Source: a virus. From it: a stretch of 14,283 nucleotides of DNA. The translations under genes and the position numbers were made by a program. Shown here piece by piece: positions 1 through 14,283 of this stretch. The DNA lies in the UHGV virus genome UHGV-0283667; one strand, 5' to 3'. The number at the start of each line of letters is the position of its first letter. Within the stretch, counting starts at the first letter, position 1. Below the pieces are notes generated by a model. The model had not been told where the DNA came from and did no database searches. It saw nothing but the letters and a program-made list of their open reading frames with translations.

Positions 1-77
1 CCTGCGCCCACGTTATAGACGAACGAGTAAAGAGCGCCGCGCGTTGTTTCCGGTATATCGACTTTGATGTACGGGTT
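1..77 (-). pseudogene. Phage endolysin (T4-lysozyme-like, GH24) fragment; reading frame runs leftward out of the window and is cut off near position 77
   Basis: Reverse-complement translation of 1-77 gives ...[26 protein letters not shown], matching the conserved core of enterobacterial prophage lysozymes. Similarity stops near 77, where the + strand Rz frame begins. Confidence 0.55.
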
Positions 78-385
78 ATTACCGTGATAACGCAATCGCC
101 TACAAAGAGCAGCGCGATAACAAGGCCAGTGAACTGGAGAAGGCGAACGCTACCATCGCTGACATGCGGAAGCGTCAACGTGATGTAGCAGAACTCGACG
201 CAAGATACACAAAGGAGCTTGCTGATGCTAACGCGACTATCGAAAGTCTCCGTGCTGATGTTTCTGCTGGGCGTAAGCGCCTGCAAGTCGCCGCCACCTG
301 TGCAAAGTCAACGACCGGTCTCACAGAAAAGCCGCCCCGAGATGGTCGCCACCATATACGGCAGTTCTCAGGCTCAACTTTCTGA
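68..385 (+). pseudogene. Rz-like inner-membrane spanin (i-spanin) fragment lacking the N-terminal transmembrane segment and the native C-terminus
   Basis: Frame opens after the TGA at 65-67. Translation [80 protein letters not shown] is lambda Rz-like (about residues 25-103). After position 316 the frame reads a non-Rz tail ([22 protein letters not shown]) to the stop at 383-385. Confidence 0.7.
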
Positions 386-398
386 AAGGCTCGGGTGA
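225..398 (+). CDS. Rz1-like outer-membrane lipoprotein spanin (o-spanin), 57 aa, in the +1 frame of Rz
   Basis: Not in the ORF track (under 60 aa). RBS AGGAG at 213-217, ATG at 225. Translation [57 protein letters not shown] has a lipoprotein signal with lipobox Cys followed by a Pro-rich stretch, as in lambda Rz1. The C-terminal part lies in the inverted segment and may not be native. Confidence 0.5.
257..316. repeat. Left arm of a 60-bp inverted repeat (58/60 identical to the reverse complement of 641-700)
   Basis: Read directly: 257-316 equals the reverse complement of 641-700 except at 266/691 and 307/650. The match does not extend at either end. Confidence 0.9.
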
Positions 399-437
399 TG
401 TAATAGGCGCGTGAGATGCGCTGTGAAATTCAGATGT

Positions 438-464
438 AAAAAAAGCCCCGCATCGCGAGGCTCA
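438..464 (-). terminator. Rho-independent terminator on the minus strand, just downstream of the minus-strand Rz fragment
   Basis: Minus-strand sequence GAGCCTCGC-GAT-GCGGGGC followed by seven U: 7-bp GC-rich stem with one G-U pair. The stem sequence is nearly identical to the + strand terminator at 1201-1226. Confidence 0.6.
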
Positions 465-493
465 TTAAATGGACTTTGTGATTTGCAAAAAAA

Positions 494-775
494 TTATTTC
501 AGGCATTGCGTCCTGATGTATTCCTGCAGGTAGTTAACCTGCGCGGTTATCTTGTCGATTCCACTTCGGAGACGGTAATAATTGAGTTCAGCATCTGCTG
601 TAAGTCCTGGGCTTTCTCCATCGCCCATGCCGCTGGCTCTGGTCGTTGATTTTGCACAGGTGGCGGCGACTTGCAGGCGCTTACGCCCAGAAGAAACATC
701 GTTTGAGGTTAAGCATCTGGCGCGCGGTAAGTGGTTGCGTTGAAATAAGAGCCAGTCCATTACAAATTTCATCAA
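494..775 (-). pseudogene. Rz (i-spanin) C-terminal portion encoded on the minus strand, fused to an unrelated 25-aa N-terminal leader
   Basis: From the arm at 700 downward the translation [66 protein letters not shown] matches the lambda Rz C-terminus, including the ...YI..QC end. The first 25 residues are not Rz-like, and the start is TTG/ATG with no clear RBS. Confidence 0.65.
641..700. repeat. Right arm of the 60-bp inverted repeat
   Basis: Reverse complement of 257-316 with two mismatches. Confidence 0.9.
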
Positions 776-1261: not shown

Positions 1262-1612
1262 ATGCCACCACGAACCCCAAAAGCCTGCCGTTTTCGCGGT
1301 TGCCGCAATACCACGACTGATCCGTCAGGCTATTGCGAAAGCCACAAAAGCGAGGGCTGGAAGCAATACAAGCCAGGACAATCCCGTCATCAGCGCGGTT
1401 ATGGTTCGAAGTGGGACAGTATCCGCGCGGGTGTCCTGAAGCGTGACAAAGGCCTGTGTCAGTTATGTCTGCGTGCTGGTGTGGTGCGTGAGGCGAAAAC
1501 CGTTGACCACATCATCCCTAAAGCGCATGGCGGCACTGATGCCGACTGTAATCTGCAGAGTCTGTGCTGGCCGTGTCATAAGGCGAAGACGGCCCGTGAA
1601 CGACTTAAGTGA
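1262..1612 (+). CDS. HNH endonuclease (phage packaging-associated)
   Basis: RBS GAGGGG about 6 nt upstream of ATG 1262. Cys-rich N-terminus and HNH motif ...VDHIIPKAHGG...NLQSLCWPCHKAKT. Position immediately upstream of terminase small subunit is typical of HK97-like phages. Confidence 0.9.
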   Translation: MPPRTPKACRFRGCRNTTTDPSGYCESHKSEGWKQYKPGQSRHQRGYGSKWDSIRAGVLKRDKGLCQLCLRAGVVREAKTVDHIIPKAHGGTDADCNLQSLCWPCHKAKTARERLK

Positions 1613-1737: not shown

Positions 1738-2232
1738 ATGGCTGGAACGGCGGGGCGTTCCGGGCGTCGCCCCAAGCCAACGGCGCGCAAGGCGCTGGCC
1801 GGAAACCCCGGCAAGCGAGCCCTGAATAAAGATGAACCCGTTTTTACGCCCATCAAAGGTGTTGAGCCACCGGAGTGGTTCGCTGAAGAAGAGCTCCCTC
1901 TCGCCACGATCATGTGGCAACTGACAACCAAAGAACTCTGTGGTCAGGGCCTGCTGTGCGTGACTGACCTCGCAGTGCTTGAGCGGTGGTGCGTAGCCTA
2001 TGAGTTCTGGCGACGTGCTGTGAAAAATATTGCCAGCCAGGGCAACACCATCACCGGTGCAATGGGCGGCATGGTCAAAAATCCGGAGCTGACCGCCAAA
2101 AAAGAACAGGAGTCCGAGATGAGCAGTACGGGGGCAATGCTCGGACTCGACCCCAGCAGCCGCCAGCGTCTGATTGGCCTGGCGGGGCAGAAGAAAGCCA
2201 CTAACCCGTTTCTGAAAATTATCGAATCATGA
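1738..2232 (+). CDS. Terminase small subunit (P27-family-like)
   Basis: RBS AGGAG at 1725-1729, ATG at 1738 (the ORF track begins at an upstream GTG, 1729). About 164 aa with a basic N-terminus. The stop overlaps the terminase large subunit start (ATGA at 2229-2232). Confidence 0.85.
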
Positions 2233-3110
2233 GCCGGAAATCTTACCCCAACGTAAATGCAGCAAATCAGTATGCCCGGGATGTCGTGCGCGGAAAGATT
2301 GTTGCCTGCCAGTTTGTGATTCAGGCCTGCCAGCGCCATCTTGATGACCTGATGGCGGAAAAAAGTAAGTCGTTTCGTTACCGCTTCGACAAGGACCTGG
2401 CTGAACGGGCCGCCAAATTTATTCAGCTGTTGCCGCACACCAAGGGTGAGTGGGCATTTAAACGGATGCCCATCACGCTGGAGCCGTGGCAGCTATTTGT
2501 GATCTGCTGTGCGTTTGGCTGGGTCAATAAAGGCACCCGGTTGCGCCGCTTCCGGGAGGTGTATACCGAAATTCCCCGTAAGAACGGCAAATCGGCAATC
2601 TCTGCCGGTGTTGCCCTGTATTGTTTTGCCTGTGATAACGAGTTCGGCGCGGAAGTGTATTCCGGTGCCACGACGGAGAAACAGGCATGGGAAGTCTTTC
2701 GTCCGGCACGACTGATGTGTAAACGCACACCCATGCTGACGGAAGCGTTCGGGATTGAGGTTAACGCCTCAAACATGAACCGTCCGGAGGATGGTGCGCG
2801 GTTTGAACCGCTGATCGGTAACCCCGGTGATGGTTCATCACCCCACTGTGCCGTGGTGGATGAATATCACGAGCACGCCACAGATGCGCTTTACACCACG
2901 ATGCTTACCGGGATGGGGGCGCGACGCCAGCCACTGACCTCGAACTGCTCAAGAGTCAGTGATTTATCCTCGCAGCTCTGCCAGCTCACCAGGTTGAAAT
3001 ACGCCGAACGCGCCGACACCCAGATATTGAGGTGTTTTGTTTTAAAGACGTTTGCCAGACGGGCGTTATTTTTCGCACGTTGCTGCTGGCTTAACAAAAA
3101 CTCGCGATAA
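2229..3110 (+). CDS. Terminase large subunit, N-terminal ATPase part; family similarity ends near 2938 and the rest of the ORF is out-of-sense read-through
   Basis: Walker A-like IPRKNGKS and Walker B-like AVVDEYHEH, then ...[11 protein letters not shown]. From about 2939 the + frame reads junk ([13 protein letters not shown]...) to the stop at 3108-3110. Confidence 0.8.
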
Positions 3111-3200
3111 ACCGACACACCGATATTCGGGTTAGCTTTTTCAAGTACCTGCGGGTCGGTCCAGTCGTCGCCTTCGTCAACGGTATAGATGATCCTGGCC
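2939..3200 (-). other. Internal terminase large subunit segment in inverted orientation (sense on the minus strand)
   Basis: Minus-strand translation [87 protein letters not shown] carries the terminase signature DDW.DP...KANPN...FKTKHLN.W. It lies exactly between the N- and C-terminal + strand parts, which share one reading frame. Confidence 0.75.
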
Positions 3201-3749
3201 CCGCGTTTCTGGGTACCGTATGACACGGTGTATAGCGTCGAGAAAAATGAAGATCGCCGGACAGCCGAACGCTTTCAGAAATGGGTGGAAATGGGCGTCC
3301 TGACCGTTACCGATGGTGCAGAGGTGGATTATCGCTACATCCTCGAAGAGGCCAAAGCGGCGAACAAAATCAGCCCGGTCAGCGAGTCACCCATCGACCC
3401 CTTCGGGGCGACCGGGTTGTCACATGACCTTGCTGATGAAGACCTGAACCCCGTCACCATCATTCAGAACTACACCAACATGTCCGACCCGATGAAAGAG
3501 CTGGAAGCGGCAATTGAATCGGGGCGCTTTCATCATGATGGCAATCCCATCATGACCTGGTGTATCGGCAACGTGGTCGGAAAAACCATTCCGGGTAACG
3601 ATGATGTGGTGAAACCCGTCAAAGAGCAGGCGGAAAACAAAATCGATGGTGCAGTTGCGCTGATTATGGCGGTTGGCAGAGCCATGCTGTACGAGAAAGA
3701 AGACACGCTGTCTGACCACATTGAGTCCTACGGGATCCGCTCGCTTTAA
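3189..3749 (+). CDS. Terminase large subunit, C-terminal nuclease part (family similarity from about 3201)
   Basis: ...[20 protein letters not shown]...[18 protein letters not shown]...[16 protein letters not shown] is typical of the Terminase_1 C-terminal nuclease domain. Same frame (0) as the N-terminal part. Confidence 0.8.
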
Positions 3750-3829
3750 CTGAGGTAATTATGATCATGCTGATTCTCGCGCCTCTGGTAGGCGTGCTGG
3801 GGGCGCTTTTGCTGGCGTATGGTGTTCAG

Positions 3830-3937
3830 GCTGCCGTTCAGGTGATACAGATTGCAGGGCAACATCCCGACCGACTCTGCCAGCACCCTGACGCAGGAAA
3901 AAACCGCCGTCAGTCGCATGGCCCGCTGGCTGCTGAT
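3830..3937 (-). other. Portal protein N-terminal conserved segment in inverted orientation
   Basis: Minus-strand translation ISSQRAMRLTAVFSCVRVLAESVGMLPCNLYHLNGS matches the N-terminal conserved helix of HK97-family portals, but lies on the strand opposite the portal body. Confidence 0.65.
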
Positions 3938-3953
3938 CTGCTTTCCGGTATAG

Positions 3954-4814
3954 GTGTCATATGACACTGGCTGTGTGGTACCGAAGCTTAACAGTAGCTG
4001 GGAGCCGGTCTATCAGGTCACATTCCCGGACGGCTCCACGGATGTGCTGACCCAGGAGGATATCTGGCATGTGCGCACGCTGACGCTGGACGGTCTGGTG
4101 GGACTGAATCCCATCGCCTATGCCCGCGAGGCAATATCGCTGGCAGCAGCGACTGAAGAGCACGGTGCCAGACTGTTCAGCAATGGCGCGGTGACGTCCG
4201 GTGTGTTGCGTACAGAACAGACGCTGTCGGATCAGGCTTATGAGCGCCTGAAGAAAGATTTTGAGGAGCGTCACACCGGGCTTGGCAATGCTCACCGCCC
4301 GATGATCCTTGAGATGGGGCTGGACTGGAAGTCGATGGCGCTGAACGCCGAGGACAGCCAGTTCCTGGAAACCCGCAAGTTTCAGCTTGAAGAAATCTGT
4401 CGTCTGTTCCGTGTGCCCTTGCACATGGTGCAGAACACCGATCGCGCCACCTTCAACAATATCGAAGAGCTGGGGCTGGGATTTATCAACTATTCACTGG
4501 TGCCGTATCTGACCCGTATTGAGCAGCGGATCAACACCGGACTGGTACGAAAAAGTAAGCAGGGCGTTTATTACGCCAAATTTAACGCCGGGGCGTTACT
4601 GCGCGGGGATATGAAGTCCCGTTTTGAAGCCTACGCCACCGGGATCAACTGGGGAATTTACTCTCCCAATGACTGCCGCGACCTGGAAGATATGAATCCG
4701 CGTCCCGGTGGTGATGTCTATCTCACACCGATGAACATGACCACGAAACCCTCCGATGGTAGTAAAGCCGGTAAGCAGAAGGATAACGCCAATGCAGACG
4801 AAACAACGTCTTGA
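3954..4814 (+). CDS. Portal protein (HK97 family), body and C-terminus; N-terminal region missing from this strand
   Basis: ...EPVYQVTFPDGSTDVL...LVGLNPIAYAREAISLAAATEEHGARLFSNGAVTSGVL...FLETRKFQLEEICRLFRVPLHMVQ...GGDVYLTPMNM is portal-like. The ORF opens at GTG 3954 inside a 14-bp palindrome, with a frame-0 stop at 3951-3953 immediately upstream. Confidence 0.85.
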   Translation: MSYDTGCVVPKLNSSWEPVYQVTFPDGSTDVLTQEDIWHVRTLTLDGLVGLNPIAYAREAISLAAATEEHGARLFSNGAVTSGVLRTEQTLSDQAYERLKKDFEERHTGLGNAHRPMILEMGLDWKSMALNAEDSQFLETRKFQLEEICRLFRVPLHMVQNTDRATFNNIEELGLGFINYSLVPYLTRIEQRINTGLVRKSKQGVYYAKFNAGALLRGDMKSRFEAYATGINWGIYSPNDCRDLEDMNPRPGGDVYLTPMNMTTKPSDGSKAGKQKDNANADETTS

Positions 4815-5442
4815 TGTACCGCTGAGTCTGAAATCTGTCAGTGACTCCGGTGAGTTTGAAGGGTATGGCTCCGTCTTTGGTGTAAAGGACAGCCACGATG
4901 ATGTGGTGATGTCCGGGGCATTTGCTGCTTCCCTGCGGGCGTGGAGTGACAGAAAAACGTTACCTGCGCTGCTCTGGCAGCACCGCATGGATGAACCCAT
5001 CGGTGTTTACACCGAAATGAAGGAAGACGATGTCGGGCTTTACGTCAGGGGACGGTTGCTCATTGATGATGATCCCCTCGCAAAACGCGCACATGCACAC
5101 ATGAAGGCCGGTTCGTTAACCGGCCTTTCTATTGGGTACGTCCTGAAAGACTGGGAATACGACCGGAGCAAAGAAGCCTTTCTGTTGAAAGAAATCGACC
5201 TCTGGGAAGTCAGTCTGGTGACGTTCCCGTCTAACGACGAGGCGCGGATCAGCAACGTCAAGAACGCGCTGGCCCGCGGGGAAATCCCCGAACAGAAAAA
5301 AATCGAAAGAGTCCTGCGTGATGTCGGACTCTCCCGTACCCAGGCCAAAGCATTCATGGCCGGGGGCTATGGCGCACTGTCCCTGCGCGACGCTGAGGAT
5401 GTGGGCTCTGCACTGAATGCACTTAAAAATCTGAACTTCTAA
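4792..5442 (+). CDS. Prohead maturation protease (HK97 family)
   Basis: RBS AAGGA at 4779-4783, ATG at 4792 (track start 4756 has no RBS). Overlaps the portal 3' end. HK97-protease-like sequence. Confidence 0.85.
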   Translation: MQTKQRLDVPLSLKSVSDSGEFEGYGSVFGVKDSHDDVVMSGAFAASLRAWSDRKTLPALLWQHRMDEPIGVYTEMKEDDVGLYVRGRLLIDDDPLAKRAHAHMKAGSLTGLSIGYVLKDWEYDRSKEAFLLKEIDLWEVSLVTFPSNDEARISNVKNALARGEIPEQKKIERVLRDVGLSRTQAKAFMAGGYGALSLRDAEDVGSALNALKNLNF

Positions 5443-9130: not shown

Positions 9131-9502
9131 ATGTCTAAAAATATCCGCAATCTGGCACTGGCGACGATGTCTGGTTTTCGCCACAAAACAGTTGATGTTC
9201 CTGAGTGGGAAGGTACAACGGTTGTATTACGGGAACCCTCTGCAGAAGCCTGGTTACGTTGGCAGGAGATCGTTAAAACCGGAGATGATGATACACCGTT
9301 ATCAGTTGCGGAGCGTGCCCGCCGAAATCTGGAAGCGGATGTTGAACTGTTCATCGATGTTCTGTGTGATACCGGGATGCAACCCGTGTTTTCAGCGGAT
9401 GATCGGGAGCAGGTACTTGCAGTATATGGTCCGGTACATGCGCGACTGCTTCGTCAGTCACTGGAACTGATCACTGATGCTGAAGTTATTAAAAAAAAGT
9501 AG
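9131..9502 (+). CDS. Tail assembly chaperone (gpG-like)
   Basis: RBS AAGGAGG at 9115-9121, ATG at 9131. Acidic ~124-aa protein directly upstream of the tape measure gene, ending in a slippery A-run. Confidence 0.75.
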   Translation: MSKNIRNLALATMSGFRHKTVDVPEWEGTTVVLREPSAEAWLRWQEIVKTGDDDTPLSVAERARRNLEADVELFIDVLCDTGMQPVFSADDREQVLAVYGPVHARLLRQSLELITDAEVIKKK

Positions 9503-9804
9503 CACTTCCGGGTATTCGTTTTCTGATGATGCTGGCGCTCAGGATGGGGCGCACATTGTCAGAGTTACGCCGGGAAATGTCTGCATCGGAAATCATGATG
9601 TGGGCAGAATTTGACAGGATCAGCCCGCTGGGTGACGAGCGGGCTGATATCCGGGCTGCCCAGATAGTTTCTGCAGTTTACGGGGCGCAGGGTGTCAAAG
9701 TTCCACTGAATGAAGCGATTCTTCAGTGGGAGGTCGTTCCTGCAAATAATATTAAAGATCCGTTCACAGCGTTTGAAAATGCATTATTTGCAGCGACACA
9801 ATGA
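9131..9804 (+). CDS. Tail assembly chaperone frameshift fusion product (gpGT-like) by -1 ribosomal frameshift at 9493-9499
   Basis: The -1 frame is open from 9493 through the stop at 9802-9804. The slippery run sits just before the G stop at 9500-9502. Confidence 0.65.
9491..9499 (+). promoter_or_regulatory. Programmed -1 frameshift slippery site (A AAA AAG)
   Basis: Heptamer A-AAA-AAG at 9493-9499 within the run AAAAAAAAG (9491-9499). Confidence 0.65.
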
Positions 9805-9814
9805 TCTTCTTACT

Positions 9815-9844
9815 TTACTGGATTATGATTCCGATTTTTATTAA
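9815..9844 (+). promoter_or_regulatory. Candidate sigma-70 promoter for the downstream moron
   Basis: TTACTG (9815-9820), 18-bp spacer, TATTAA (9839-9844), in an AT-rich intergenic stretch. Confidence 0.3.
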
Positions 9845-9862
9845 GTAAATAAGGAGATATTG

Positions 9863-10204
9863 ATGGAAGTTATTCTTATTGCGCTAGTCCTGGGGTTAAT
9901 TCCGGCTATTATCGCGCAAAGTAAAGGGCGTTCATTTTGGGGATGGTGGATATACGGAGCCTTACTCTTTATCGTTGCCTTGGTTCATTCACTTGTAATC
10001 CAAAAAGATGAAAAAACGCATGAGCAACAAATGGTGAGCAATGGCATGAAAAAATGCCCTTACTGTGCGGAGTTGATCAAAGAAGAAGCCATTAAGTGTA
10101 AGCATTGCGGTAGTGATTTAACACATAACCCTGATAGTACCGTTTCGCAAAAAACGGATGATGAATATCTTGAAGAAGCAAGGCGTAAGGCTGGGCTTCT
10201 TTAA
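9863..10204 (+). CDS. Moron: small membrane protein with two predicted TM helices and a C-terminal zinc-ribbon (CPYC...CKHC)
   Basis: RBS AAGGAG at 9851-9856, ATG at 9863. Two hydrophobic stretches, then CPYC-x13-CKHC. AT-rich codon usage unlike flanking tail genes. Own terminator downstream. Confidence 0.7.
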   Translation: MEVILIALVLGLIPAIIAQSKGRSFWGWWIYGALLFIVALVHSLVIQKDEKTHEQQMVSNGMKKCPYCAELIKEEAIKCKHCGSDLTHNPDSTVSQKTDDEYLEEARRKAGLL

Positions 10205-10234: not shown

Positions 10235-10249
10235 GCCTGGAGAACGAGA

Positions 10250-13200
10250 ATGGCGTCACTACGCGAACTGATTATAAAAATCTCGGCAAATTCGCAGTCA
10301 TTCCAGTCAGAAATTGCGCGAGCTTCACGTATGGGACAGGAGTACTACCGTACCATGCAGAACGGAGGTCGACAGTCTGCAGCTGCATCCCGTGATATGC
10401 GGCGAGCACTGGCAGAAGTGACCGAGCAGATAAATACGGCGAAGTCTTCGGCAATGAATATGGCTGGCGCATTTGCCGGTGCTTTTGCCACTGGACATCT
10501 TATATCTCTTGCGGATGAATGGAGCTCAGTAAATGCCCGTTTGAAGCAGGCCACGCAGTCCAGCGATGATTTCCAGGCATCACAGCGCGAATTAATGGCG
10601 ATCAGCCAGAGAACGGGTACTGCTTTTGCTGATAACGCCAGTCTTTTTGCACGTTCGGCTTCTTCCATGCGGGAATATGGTTACAGGTCTGAGGAAGTAC
10701 TGAAAGTTACCGAGGCCATTTCTACAGGATTGAAATTGTCCGGAGCCAGTTCTGCGGAAGCCAGCTCGGTGATCACTCAGTTCAGCCAGGCACTGGCGCA
10801 AGGGGTTCTGCGCGGTGAAGAGTTTAATTCAGTAAATGAAAGCGGTGATCGTGTTATTCGTGCTCTGGCTGCAGGAATGGGGGTTGCCCGTAAAGATCTG
10901 AAGGCAATGGCGGATGATGGAAAGCTGACCGCCGATAAGGTTGTTCCTGCACTGATTAGCCAGCTTGGTACGCTGCGGGATGAATATGCAGCCATGCCTG
11001 ATACCGTATCATCCTCTGCAACCAAAGTTGAAAACGCCTTTATGGCCTGGGTTGGTGGTGCGAATGATGCCAGCGGTGCAACGAAAACGCTTACCGGAAT
11101 AATGAATGGTGTTGCGAATAATATTGATACGGTTGCCACGGCGGCGGGAGCTCTGGTTGCAATTGGTGTAGCCCGATATTTTGGCAATATGGCGTCTTCT
11201 GCGGGCTCTGCAACTGCCGGGTTAATCACTGTTGCCAGAAACGAAGTGGCTCTTGCTGAGGCACAGCTCAGAGGGACACAGATAGCAACAGCCAGAGCGC
11301 GGGCGGCATTGTATCGTGCGCAGCAGGCGGTTGTGGCTGCCCGTGGTACAGAAAAACAGGCTGCAGCAGAAGCGAAACTGGCAACCGCACAGGCTTCACT
11401 TACCCGTAATATTGCTGCCAGAACAGCGGCACAGGCAACGCTGAATAACGTTACGTCAGTTAGTAGTCGGTTGTTAAGCGGTGCTCTGGGGCTGGTTGGT
11501 GGTGTGCCTGGACTTGTCATGCTGGGGGCGGCGGCCTGGTACACAATGTATCAGAACCAGGAGCAGGCCAGAGAATCAGCGCGTCAGTATGCCGCAACAA
11601 TCGACGAAATTCGCCAGAAAACGTCTGCAATGTCACTTCCTGAAGCGGCAGATAATGAAGAAAAGACGCGGCAGGCTCTGGAGGAGCAGAACAGGTTAAT
11701 TGACGAGCAGAAAAGTAAGATTAAATCCTTACAGGAAAAAATTGCTGGCTATCAGTATGTCCTGGCAAACCCGGGCTGGACAACCGATAACGGTTTTATG
11801 ATTAACCACATGACGTCGGTGAAAACTGTCACAGAAGGGCTTGCAGAAGCAACAAGTCAGCTGGCTGTTGAGCAGTCCCGACTTTCCGGAATGCAGGAAA
11901 AAGCCCAGTCAATCCAGGATGTGCTTGCCGGGCTGGAAGAACGACGAGTGGTGCTGATCCGCCAACAGGCAGCGGAACAAAACAAAGCATATCAGTCATT
12001 ACTGATCATGAATGGCCAACATACCGAGTTTAATCGTCTTCTTGGGCTTGGTAATGAATTACTTCAGCAGCGACAGGGGCTGGTGAATGTACCGTTACGG
12101 CTGCCACAGGCTGCTCTGGATGATAAACAGCAGAACGCGCTGAATAACACTGAGCGAGAGCTGACCTTATCCCGTATGAAGGGGGAAGCGCGTGAGCGTA
12201 CTCGTCTGGGCTATGTAGCGGATGATCTCGGTTTTGTGGGGGATGCCTATCAGACGGCAAGGCAAACTTATATCAACAACGCGCTGGAAGCATGGCGTAA
12301 CAACCAGGCGAATAAGCCAAAGGTACGTGGTGGAAAATCGGAAGCAGAAAAAACGGAAGATGCTTATAACAGACTGATTAAACAACAAAAAGAACAAATA
12401 GCACTGGCAGGACAGAATACTGAACTGGCTAAGATGAAATACCAGGTCAGCCAGGGCGAATTATCAACCTTATCAGAAGCGCAGAAACAAACCCTTTTAC
12501 AGAATGCAGCACTCATCGACCAGAAAAAAATTCGTGAGCAAATTGCTGCTTATGAAAGCAGCCTGGCGGACAGTAACGCCAGTGTCAGGGCATCAAATGA
12601 GGCTCAGTTGTTAGGGTATGGAGACGGAACACGAATACGTGAGCGGCTTCAGGAAATGTGGAACATCCGACAGGAGTTTGAGCAGAAAAATAATGAGTTG
12701 CTGAGACAGTACCAGACCGGAGAAATCGAAGAAGCCCTGTGGAAACAGGAAAAAACGCTGAATGAAAAATATCTGGAGGAGCGTCTCAACGATCAGCAGG
12801 ATTATTATGCAAAGGCCGATGCTTTACGCAGTAACTGGAATGCTGGGCTCAAAGAGGGGCTGACGAACTGGGCAGACAGTGCCACTGATTATGCTTCACA
12901 AGCGGCAGATGCGGTCGTTTCCACTATGGATGGTCTGGTTTCAAATATTTCCGAGGCACTGGCCGGAAACGTTGTGGACTGGAGAAACTGGGGGAGTTCG
13001 ATCCTTCAGGAAGTTTCAAAAATCCTGATGAACGCGGCCATTGTTAACGGGCTGAAATCACTCTCCGGGACAATGTCGGGAGCGGGGGGATGGATTGGTA
13101 GTGTTGGCGACTGGCTTTCCGGTGCAGTAGCGAACGCAAAAGGCGGTGTTTACACATCGGCAAATCTGAGTGCTTACAGTAACACCATTGTGGATACGCC

Positions 13201-13826: not shown

Positions 13827-14218
13827 TGCAGGATATACAGCAGGAAACACTGAATGAGTGTACAAAATCGGAGCAATCCGCGCTGGTCGTGCTCTGGGAA
13901 GTCGATCTGACAGAGGTCGGCGGAGAGCGTTATTTTTTCTGTAATGAGCAGAACGAAAAAGGTGAGTCGGTCACCTGGCAGGGGCGACAGTATCAGGCGT
14001 ACCCTATTCAGGGAAGCGGCTTTGAGATGAACGGCAAAGGAGCCAGTGCAAGACCAACGCTGAAAGTCTCTAACCTGCACGGCATGGTCACCGGGATGGC
14101 GGAAGACCTGCAGAGTCTGGTCGGCGGAAAGGTAGTCAGGCGTAAGGTTTGCCAAAGTTGCCGACGTTATTGCGAAACTTACAGCCACTCAGGCATTTGC
14201 TGCATTTATCCTTCGTGA
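13826..14218 (+). CDS. Minor tail protein L (lambda gpL-like), N-terminal 108 aa; family similarity ends at 14149
   Basis: MQDIQQETLNECTKSEQSALVVLWEVDLTEVGGERYFFCNEQNEKGE.VTWQGRQYQ.YPIQGSGFE.NGKG...VVRRKV is nearly identical in pattern to lambda L. From 14150 the frame reads non-L sequence. Start overlaps the M stop. Confidence 0.85.
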   Translation: MQDIQQETLNECTKSEQSALVVLWEVDLTEVGGERYFFCNEQNEKGESVTWQGRQYQAYPIQGSGFEMNGKGASARPTLKVSNLHGMVTGMAEDLQSLVGGKVVRRKVCQSCRRYCETYSHSGICCIYPS

Positions 14219-14283
14219 TATCGGACGTCGGCTGGTCATATTCATCCGCGACAGCCGGACCGCTATAACCGCACTCATCACCG
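14150..14283 (-). other. Minor tail protein L C-terminal region in inverted orientation; continues beyond the window end
   Basis: Minus-strand translation GDECGYSGPAVADEYDQPTSDITKDKCSKCLSGCKFRNNVGNFG matches the Cys-rich C-terminal region of lambda L. Confidence 0.75.

What the first reader, a model, noticed from the sequence alone, without database searches (positions are those of the whole stretch)
3750..4010. Portal gene 5' end rearranged: N-terminal helix on the opposite strand and a 14-bp perfect palindrome at the junction
The + strand portal ORF begins at 3954, has a stop codon immediately upstream in frame, and lacks the N-terminal ~100 residues expected for an HK97-family portal. The conserved N-terminal helix (RLTAVFSCVRVLAESVGMLPCNLYHL) is encoded on the minus strand at 3830-3937. 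A perfect palindrome GTGTCATATGACAC at 3954-3967 lies exactly where both strand-specific frames begin, so both translations start V-S-Y-D-T. The RBS after the terminase stop leads into a 67-aa hydrophobic ORF (3761-3964) that is largely antisense to the portal segment. The reconstructed spacing between the helix and the PDGS region looks short, so the event may be more complex than a clean inversion.
Basis: partly seen in the sequence, partly recalled or inferred. Interest (0 to 1): 0.75.

Follow-up and report, generated by a model that had tools for sequence, protein, structure and literature searches.

The report
Scrambled portal gene, probably artefact
The start of the phage portal gene really is deleted and partly flipped in this sequence, but it is one of five such private lesions in the window, none seen in any related genome, so it is most likely a sequence artefact or dead-prophage damage and not a biological device.

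Summary
The window is the head-tail module of an E. coli SfII/SfIV/e14-like prophage. It is 99.97-100% identical to E. coli strain 1517k and to ten other public contigs.

Compared with all of them, the span from ymfR codon 22 to portal codon 132 (512 bp) is replaced by the reverse complement of its central 142 bp (portal codons 27-74). The flanking 197 bp and 173 bp are lost.

The 14-bp palindrome is a 12-bp palindrome already present in the intact portal gene, extended by one base pair by chance. A palindrome this long is expected in 59% of shuffles. The 67-aa ORF is YmfR residues 1-21 fused to an antisense reading of portal.

This is not special to the portal. The same kind of lesion occurs at 2938-3195 (TerL), 14151-14283 (tail protein L), 315-700 and 1-78 (lysis genes). 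All are private: no E. coli complete genome that matches the region spans any tested junction (0 of 1,352 at the portal), and none appears in phages, plasmids or the scanned collections. Six of eight junctions are blunt, and none has flanking repeats. The window differs from its nearest relatives by only one or two point differences.

Best reading: non-biological corruption, either chimeric, misassembled or simulated (confidence 0.7). The alternative is genuine private damage in a dead prophage (0.24). A programmed inversion is excluded.

The parts
3196..3749 (+). 3' part of the terminase large subunit gene (TerL codons 394-577 and stop), collinear with intact relatives
   Evidence: Window 3196-3824 equals reference 9417-10045 at 100%. 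Codon positions.
3761..3824 (+). ymfR start: codons 1-21 plus one base, preceded by a GAGG ribosome-binding site. In intact relatives ymfR encodes a 60-aa membrane protein.
   Evidence: phrog_502 'membrane protein' matches residues 1-22 only.
3824..3825 (.). Left junction. ymfR codon 22 is joined to the reverse complement of portal codon 74. 197 bp are lost (rest of ymfR plus portal codons 1-26). The join is blunt, with no microhomology.
   Evidence: The 28-mer across this junction is absent from viral, genome and metagenome collections.
3825..3966 (-). Inverted 142-bp segment: portal codons 27-74 (start of the conserved portal fold) on the minus strand
   Evidence: 100% identical to reference 10384..10243 on the minus strand. 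Pfam and PHROG portal matches. Aligns to the HK97 portal 8cez from residue 41.
3954..3967 (.). 14-bp perfect palindrome GTGTCATATGACAC. It is the 12-bp palindrome TGTCATATGACA of the intact portal gene plus one chance base pair across the right junction.
   Evidence: 12 bp in the reference at 10243-10254; a palindrome of 14 bp or more is found in 59% of shuffles.
3966..3967 (.). Right junction. Inverted portal codon 27 is joined to portal codon 132 (second base). 173 bp are lost. The join is blunt, with no microhomology.
3967..4814 (+). Remaining portal gene (codons 132-413), collinear with intact relatives
   Evidence: PF04860 profile positions 94-321, E=7e-81.
3761..3964 (+). Chimeric 67-aa ORF: YmfR residues 1-21 fused to an antisense reading of portal codons 27-74. 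A by-product of the lesion, not a gene.
   Evidence: Not on record as a called protein anywhere.
3746..3967 (-). 73-aa minus-strand ORF: portal residues 27-74 running on into an antisense reading of ymfR. A by-product of the lesion.
2938..3195 (-). Second lesion of the same kind. TerL codons 273-359 are inverted, with 108 bp and 105 bp deleted on either side. This splits the 577-aa TerL into ORFs of 293 and 186 aa.
   Evidence: Spanned by 0 of 1,392 matching genomes.
14151..14283 (-). Third lesion. Tail protein L codons 178-222 are inverted after a 208-bp deletion. It runs off the window end.
315..700 (-). Fourth lesion. The 3' part of the Rz-like lysis gene and the sequence downstream of it are inverted. 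This piece overlaps the preceding + piece by 62 bp as an inverted duplication.
   Evidence: The longest collinear stretch in any E. coli genome is 315-700.
1..78 (-). Fifth lesion. An inverted piece of an rrrD-like lysozyme gene is followed by a 232-bp deletion. It runs off the window start.
   Evidence: Spanned by 0 of 4,051 matching genomes.

Best explanation
The rearranged portal start is not a biological device. It is one of five private deletion-inversion-deletion lesions scattered through an otherwise near-perfect copy of a common E. coli prophage. It most likely does not exist in the organism. The probable source is corruption of the sequence record, by chimeric or misjoined molecules, by misassembly, or by structural variants introduced in silico.

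Shown: in each lesion a block of about 470-510 bp is replaced by the reverse complement of its central 130-390 bp, with blunt joins.

Inferred: as written, the locus cannot make phage particles. TerL is split in three, the portal lacks residues 1-131, and tail protein L and Rz are broken. The palindrome, the 67-aa ORF and the shared V-S-Y-D-T starts are passive by-products.
For: 1. The structure of the event comes from alignment to strain 1517k and ten independent contigs, at 100% identity within each block.
2. There are five events in 14.3 kb, but only one or two point differences from the nearest relatives (L003, L009). Structural changes outnumbering point changes to this degree is not what natural divergence produces.
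3. Every junction tested is private:
   - spanned by 0 of 1,352, 0 of 1,392, 0 of 2,329 and 0 of 4,051 matching E. coli genomes;
   - all 17 phage and 18 plasmid records that cover the region carry the intact arrangement;
   - the junction 28-mer is absent from IMG/VR, the GTDB representatives and JGI metagenomes;
   - four window-specific ORFs are absent from a 153-billion-gene index, while the intact tape-measure protein is listed in 244 blocks.
4. Six of eight junctions have no microhomology. No inverted or direct repeats bracket the segment. This fits random blunt breakpoints (P=0.24).
5. Both window ends lie inside inverted pieces, although such pieces make up only 7% of the window. The chance of that is about 0.005.
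6. Viable phages SfII, SfIV and SfI carry the intact TerL-YmfR-portal order.
Against: No reads or provenance are available, so absence from the organism is inferred and not shown. No specific technical process was identified that yields paired, local, order-preserving, blunt strand switches. De Bruijn graph misjoins would need overlaps of k-1 bases, and MDA chimeras usually show 2-21 nt of complementarity. The window carries one private non-synonymous SNP (14130 C>A), as a real independent isolate might. Breakpoint b falls exactly on the edge of a 12-bp palindrome (about 0.4% by chance), which hints at a physical rather than a purely random process.
Confidence: 0.7

Rival explanations
1. The lesions are genuine private mutations in a dead prophage. 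Pairs of double-strand breaks were each followed by end degradation of about 100-230 bp and re-joining of the released fragment in inverted orientation. Alternatively, double template switches occurred during replication (FoSTeS/MMBIR-like). Either route would leave a non-inducible prophage remnant.
For: The sequence is internally consistent and otherwise a faithful E. coli prophage. It has its own private SNP. A mosaic lysis region at the left end suggests an independent isolate. The del-INV-del geometry fits two breaks plus resection. One breakpoint lies at a palindrome edge.
Against: Five complex events against one or two SNPs in 14 kb. From established knowledge, E. coli has no Ku/LigD end-joining, and its alternative end-joining and template switching usually use microhomology, yet six of eight junctions are blunt. 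No intermediate (a single-event variant) exists among more than 1,300 genomes. Both window ends fall within inverted pieces.
Confidence: 0.24
2. The lesions are chimeras from phi29 multiple displacement amplification, carried into a consensus or a single-molecule read. This is a sub-case of the artefact reading.
For: MDA of E. coli DNA gives rearrangements of which more than 85% are inverted sequences with intervening deletions, mostly intramolecular and local (PMC1855051). That matches the geometry seen here.
Against: In that study more than 70% of junctions had 2-21 nt of complementarity. Here only one of eight does (P=0.0013). Each event needs two matched switches that restore the original strand. 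Chimeras rarely dominate a consensus five times in 14 kb.
Confidence: 0.1
3. The 142-bp segment is a programmed invertible switch (Hin/Gin/Pin-type invertase, Fim-type switch or shufflon) that turns portal or ymfR expression on and off.
For: A short inverted segment at a gene start with a palindrome at one border. From established knowledge, the related e14 prophage carries the Pin invertase.
Against: No inverted repeats lie at the borders in either the intact or the rearranged sequence. 370 bp are lost, so the change is irreversible. The opposite orientation with the same borders does not exist in any of 1,352 genomes. None of the window's genes, mapped onto the annotated relatives, is a recombinase. 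The same lesion type hits unrelated genes.
Confidence: 0.01
4. Portals of this lineage genuinely start near 3954, and the minus-strand similarity is fortuitous.
For: None found.
Against: All relatives encode a 413-aa portal that covers PF04860 positions 2-321. The minus-strand segment is 100% identical in DNA to codons 27-74 of that gene.
Confidence: 0

Closest known systems
Head-tail module of Shigella/E. coli temperate phages SfII, SfIV and SfI, and of e14-type prophages (HNH, P27-family TerS, TerL, YmfR, HK97-family portal, S78 protease, HK97-type capsid)
   Same: 97-100% DNA identity. The gene order is the same from HNH to tail protein L.
   Different: The window lacks 370 bp at the ymfR-portal boundary and carries portal codons 27-74 in reverse. 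It has four further lesions of the same type.
HK97 portal protein (PDB 8cez / 8fql)
   Same: Residues 27-385 of the intact relative align to HK97 portal residues 41-403, E=2e-51.
   Different: The window's + ORF keeps only residues 132/133-413. The first ~105 residues of the conserved fold are deleted or lie on the other strand.
Inversions flanked by deletions (del-INV-del / 'INVDEL' complex structural variants), as described in human genomes and as offered by structural-variant simulators (from my own knowledge, not checked here)
   Same: The geometry matches: a central piece is inverted and both flanks are lost.
   Different: Here they are tiny (about 0.5 kb), have blunt junctions, and number five in 14 kb of a bacterial prophage. 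One (315-700) carries a 62-bp inverted duplication instead of a left-hand deletion.
MDA (phi29) chimeras
   Same: Inverted sequence with an intervening deletion, local and intramolecular (PMC1855051).
   Different: Junction complementarity of 2-21 nt is typical there but nearly absent here.
Site-specific DNA invertase switches (Pin of e14, Hin, Gin, shufflons)
   Same: A short DNA segment is found in the reverse orientation.
   Different: There are no border inverted repeats, DNA is lost, no recombinase gene is present, and no second orientation occurs in the population.

Membership tests
HK97-family phage portal protein (Pfam PF04860 Phage_portal) | One polypeptide matches the profile essentially end to end (positions ~2-321) | tested here: not met
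   Window ORF 3954-4814 covers profile positions 94-321 only. The intact relative covers 2-321. The window holds a portal gene fragment, not an intact portal.
HK97-family phage portal protein (Pfam PF04860 Phage_portal) | Score above the Pfam gathering threshold (39.1 bits) | tested here: met
   272.3 bits for the 286-aa ORF. The minus-strand 73-aa ORF scores 23.5 bits, below the threshold but at profile positions 2-37.
Programmed invertible DNA switch (serine/tyrosine invertase systems, shufflons) | Inverted repeats (recombination sites) at both borders of the invertible segment | tested here: not met
   No inverted repeats lie at a/c or b/d in the intact sequence or in the window. The junctions have no microhomology.
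Programmed invertible DNA switch (serine/tyrosine invertase systems, shufflons) | Conservative and reversible: no DNA is gained or lost | tested here: not met
   197 bp and 173 bp are deleted at the two borders.
Programmed invertible DNA switch (serine/tyrosine invertase systems, shufflons) | Both orientations are seen among related genomes | tested here: not met
   None of 1,352 E. coli genomes with the region has the window's arrangement. All phage, plasmid and other contigs carry the intact order.
Programmed invertible DNA switch (serine/tyrosine invertase systems, shufflons) | An invertase or recombinase gene lies adjacent | tested here: not met
   Every gene in the window maps to a lysis, packaging, head or tail gene of the annotated relatives, and none is a recombinase. 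Sequence outside the window is unknown.
MDA (phi29) chimera | Inverted sequence with an intervening deletion, in a nearby region of the same molecule | tested here: met
   compared with PMC1855051.
MDA (phi29) chimera | 2-21 nt of complementarity at most (>70%) junctions | tested here: not met
   Microhomology at the eight junctions is 0, 0, 0, 0, 0, 0, 1 and 4 nt. P=0.0013 under a rate of 70%.
Replication-based complex rearrangement (FoSTeS/MMBIR) | Microhomology and/or templated insertions at the junctions | tested here: not met
   Six of eight junctions are blunt and none has inserted bases. One private SNP lies 21 bp from junction D, which is weak support at most.
Assembly or sequence artefact | Reads from the source sample do not support the junctions | not testable with these tools
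   No reads or provenance are available. The support is indirect: the junctions and their chimeric ORFs are absent from all searched collections.
YmfR small membrane protein (phrog_502) | Full-length match (~58 positions) of a ~60-aa protein | tested here: not met
   Only residues 1-22 of the 67-aa ORF match (E=4.4e-5). The intact 60-aa YmfR matches over residues 1-55 at E=6e-28.

The most novel reading that the evidence does not exclude
The five lesions are real and arose in vivo as a localised burst of blunt deletion-inversion-deletion rearrangements confined to a prophage. This would resemble a small-scale bacterial version of chromothripsis or chromoanasynthesis, for example after nuclease attack on replicating prophage DNA followed by homology-independent end joining in E. 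coli.
Probability: 0.1. Interest if true: 0.55.

Novelty: not a real feature. Interest (0 to 1): 0.1.

Why it matters
As a biological finding it matters little. At best it is a private loss-of-function scar in a common prophage.

Its practical value is as a warning. This window carries at least five local inversion-plus-deletion lesions that create chimeric ORFs, false gene starts and a junction palindrome. Any other finding drawn from it, such as a split terminase, a truncated tail protein L or odd lysis genes, should be checked against the intact relatives first.

If the lesions proved real, clustered blunt del-INV-del events in E. coli would be an unusual mutational signature and worth following up.

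Tried and rejected
- **Finding the source.** I looked for the window's arrangement elsewhere and found nothing. The junction 28-mer is absent from viral, genome and metagenome collections. An exact look-up of four window-specific ORFs found no record. BLAST of each junction against 5,426 E. coli genomes, phages and plasmids found no spanning match. A 35-mer carrying the private SNP is also absent from metagenome and viral contigs. The source could not be identified.
- **Recombination signals.** There are no inverted or direct repeats at the breakpoints and no shared motif. GATC or other restriction sites are not consistently present. I rejected invertase and restriction-religation models.
- **Palindrome as the cause.** The palindrome is pre-existing and is not beyond chance in length. 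No X-palindrome-rc(X) symmetry surrounds it, so a snap-back origin is rejected. Its exact coincidence with breakpoint b remains unexplained.
- **Assembly gaps from extreme base composition.** The deleted pieces are 53-60% GC against 52% overall, which is unremarkable.
- **De Bruijn graph misjoin.** This needs overlaps of k-1 bases at the junctions, and none are present.
- **In-silico re-inversion.** It does not restore a portal reading frame.
- **Resolving events at 1-700.** The source's lysis region is a mosaic that is not represented in the references I fetched (L013-L015). The right-hand deletion of the 315-700 event could therefore not be sized.

Full report
**What the window is.** The 14,283-bp window is the late region of an E. 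coli temperate prophage. In order it holds lysis genes, an HNH endonuclease, a P27-family small terminase, the large terminase (TerL), the small membrane protein YmfR, an HK97-family portal, an S78 prohead protease, an HK97-type major capsid protein, head-tail connectors, an Ig-domain tail tube protein, tail chaperones G/T, a Zn-ribbon ORF, the tape-measure protein and tail proteins M and L. Its closest complete-genome relative is strain 1517k (NZ_CP054388.1), at 99.97-100% identity block by block. The viable Shigella phages SfII, SfIV and SfI share the module at about 97.5%.

**Checking the observation.**
- The + ORF 3954-4814 starts with GTG, directly after an in-frame TAG at 3951-3953.
- It matches Pfam Phage_portal only over profile positions 94-321. 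The 413-aa portal of relatives matches positions 2-321.
- The minus-strand ORF 3746-3967 encodes MSYDTYTGKQISSQRAMRLTAVFSCVRVLAESVGMLPCNLYHLNGSLN. This is portal residues 27-74 of the intact gene, identical at DNA level. It hits PF04860 positions 2-37 (E=3.7e-5) and phrog_12 portal (E=6.5e-11).
- GTGTCATATGACAC sits at 3954-3967.
- The 67-aa ORF 3761-3964 follows the GAGG ribosome-binding site after the TerL stop.

**Anatomy of the event.** I aligned the window to strain 1517k and to ten independent public contigs that carry the identical tape-measure protein. The breakpoints are the same in every comparison.
- Window 3196-3824 is collinear. It covers the TerL 3' end and ymfR codons 1-21.
- 197 bp are then missing: ymfR codon 22 to its stop, plus portal codons 1-26.
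- Window 3825-3966 is the reverse complement of portal codons 27-74 (142 bp).
- 173 bp are then missing: portal codons 74-132.
- From 3967 onwards the portal continues collinearly from codon 132.

So a 512-bp block has been replaced by the reverse complement of its central 142 bp. Both joins are blunt, with no shared base on either side. By chance the GTG at 3954 is in frame with the remaining portal, which produces the 286-aa ORF. The 67-aa ORF is YmfR residues 1-21 fused to an antisense reading of the inverted portal piece. Re-inverting 3825-3966 in silico does not restore a portal. It gives YmfR(1-21)-portal(28-73), then a frameshift and a stop.

**The palindrome.** The intact portal gene already contains the 12-bp palindrome TGTCATATGACA, which encodes part of S-Y-D-T. 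The new neighbour at the right junction happens to extend it by one base pair to 14 bp. A perfect palindrome of 14 bp or more occurs in 59% of shuffles of the window, so its length is unremarkable. That both strands begin V-S-Y-D-T is a trivial consequence of the palindrome. There is no X-palindrome-rc(X) symmetry around it, so a snap-back origin is not supported. One oddity remains. Breakpoint b lies exactly on the edge of one of only two palindromes of 12 bp or more in the region. I estimate the chance of that at about 0.4%, and I cannot explain it.

**The decisive context.** The same kind of lesion recurs across the window.
- TerL codons 273-359 are inverted at 2938-3195, with 108 bp and 105 bp lost on the two sides. 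This splits the 577-aa TerL into 293-aa and 186-aa ORFs.
- Tail protein L codons 178-222 are inverted at 14151-14283 after a 208-bp deletion.
- At the left end, compared with DLP12-type lysis cassettes, 1-78 is inverted and followed by a 232-bp deletion. 78-318 is forward. 315-700 is inverted and overlaps the previous piece by 62 bp.
- Both ends of the window therefore lie inside inverted pieces, although such pieces make up only 7% of the window. The chance of that is about 0.005.

**All of these junctions are private.**
- No E. coli complete genome spans them. The counts are 0 of 1,352 matching genomes for 3700-4060, 0 of 1,392 for 2800-3330, 0 of 2,329 for 200-800 and 0 of 4,051 for 1-200.
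- All 17 phage and 18 plasmid records that cover the region carry the intact order.
- The junction 28-mer is absent from IMG/VR, the GTDB species representatives and JGI metagenomes.
- Four window-specific chimeric ORFs are not on record among 153 billion called genes, while the intact tape-measure protein is listed in 244 blocks.
- Apart from the rearrangements, the window differs from its nearest relatives (L003, L009) at only two positions in the blocks compared. One of them, 14130 C>A (T102K in tail protein L), is found nowhere else.

**Interpretation.** Five complex structural lesions against one or two point differences is the reverse of what natural divergence produces. The junctions carry no inverted or direct repeats and no shared motif. 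DNA is lost at each one, and the window holds no recombinase gene. A programmed inversion is therefore excluded.

From established knowledge, E. coli lacks Ku/LigD end-joining, and its alternative end-joining and template switching normally use microhomology. Six of eight blunt junctions fit that poorly, but they do fit randomly placed breakpoints (P=0.24). MDA chimeras have the right geometry: more than 85% are inverted sequences with intervening deletions (PMC1855051). However, more than 70% of MDA junctions carry 2-21 nt of complementarity, against one of eight here (P=0.0013). De Bruijn graph misjoins would need long overlaps at the junctions, and there are none.

I therefore conclude that the feature is most likely non-biological corruption of the sequence (confidence 0.7), from chimeric or misjoined molecules, misassembly, or structural variants introduced in silico. 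The exact process is unidentified. The main rival is genuine private damage in a dead prophage (0.24).

On either reading the locus has no function. TerL, the portal, tail protein L and Rz are all broken, so no particles could be made. That last step is an inference from the roles of these genes in HK97-like and lambda-like assembly. It is supported by the alignment of portal residues 27-385 to the HK97 portal structure 8cez.

**Comparison with known things and verdict.** The underlying genes are ordinary members of the SfII/SfIV/e14-type module. The lesion resembles the inversion-flanked-by-deletions class of complex structural variants and MDA chimeras, but it fails the microhomology criterion of both. 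It fails every criterion of an invertase switch.

Novelty: not a real feature. Interest: 0.1. The most novel reading that the evidence does not exclude is a real, localised burst of blunt del-INV-del events in a prophage. I give that about 10% probability and moderate interest if true. Read mapping or junction PCR on the source DNA would settle it.

Noticed in passing
window 2938-3195: TerL codons 273-359 are inverted, with 108 bp and 105 bp deleted on either side. The three segment lengths (108, 258, 105) are all multiples of 3. TerL is split into ORFs 2229-3110 and 3189-3749.
   Followed up: yes
window 14151-14283 and 14130: Tail protein L codons 178-222 are inverted after a 208-bp deletion, and the piece runs off the window end. 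A private non-synonymous SNP (C>A, T102K) lies 21 bp before the junction. It is present in none of 2,939 matching E. coli genomes and in no metagenome or viral contig.
   Followed up: yes
window 1-700: There are two further orientation switches in the lysis genes. 1-78 is inverted, 78-318 is forward and 315-700 is inverted with a 62-bp inverted duplication. The lysis cassette is DLP12-like (rrrD/Rz), unlike the nearest relative 1517k, so the source prophage is a mosaic at this end. The right-hand deletion could not be sized.
   Followed up: partly
window 3825-3964 (+ frame of the 67-aa ORF): Residues 22-67 of the chimeric ORF are an antisense reading of portal codons 27-74. They match phrog_37237 ('unknown function', 55 aa) at E=2e-30. 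That PHROG family therefore looks like a collection of spurious antisense-of-portal ORF calls.
   Followed up: no
reference position equivalent to window 3955-3966 (L001 3827-3838): Breakpoint b of the portal event falls exactly on the edge of one of only two perfect palindromes of 12 bp or more in ~15 kb. I estimate about 0.4% by chance. It is unexplained.
   Followed up: partly
window 9860-10204: A 113/114-aa Zn-ribbon-domain ORF sits between tail assembly chaperone T and the tape-measure gene. This is an unusual place for an extra gene. It is conserved in all intact relatives fetched.
   Followed up: no
window 1262-1612 and 1729-2232: An HNH endonuclease gene lies directly upstream of a P27-family small terminase. 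From my own knowledge this pairing is typical of HK97-like cos packaging modules. Both genes are intact in the window.
   Followed up: no
L001 3566-3748 / 3748-4989 (intact relatives): In intact relatives the 60-aa membrane protein YmfR (phrog_502, categorised as a moron or auxiliary gene) is wedged between TerL and the portal. Its stop overlaps the portal's GTG start by one base, which suggests translational coupling.
   Followed up: no
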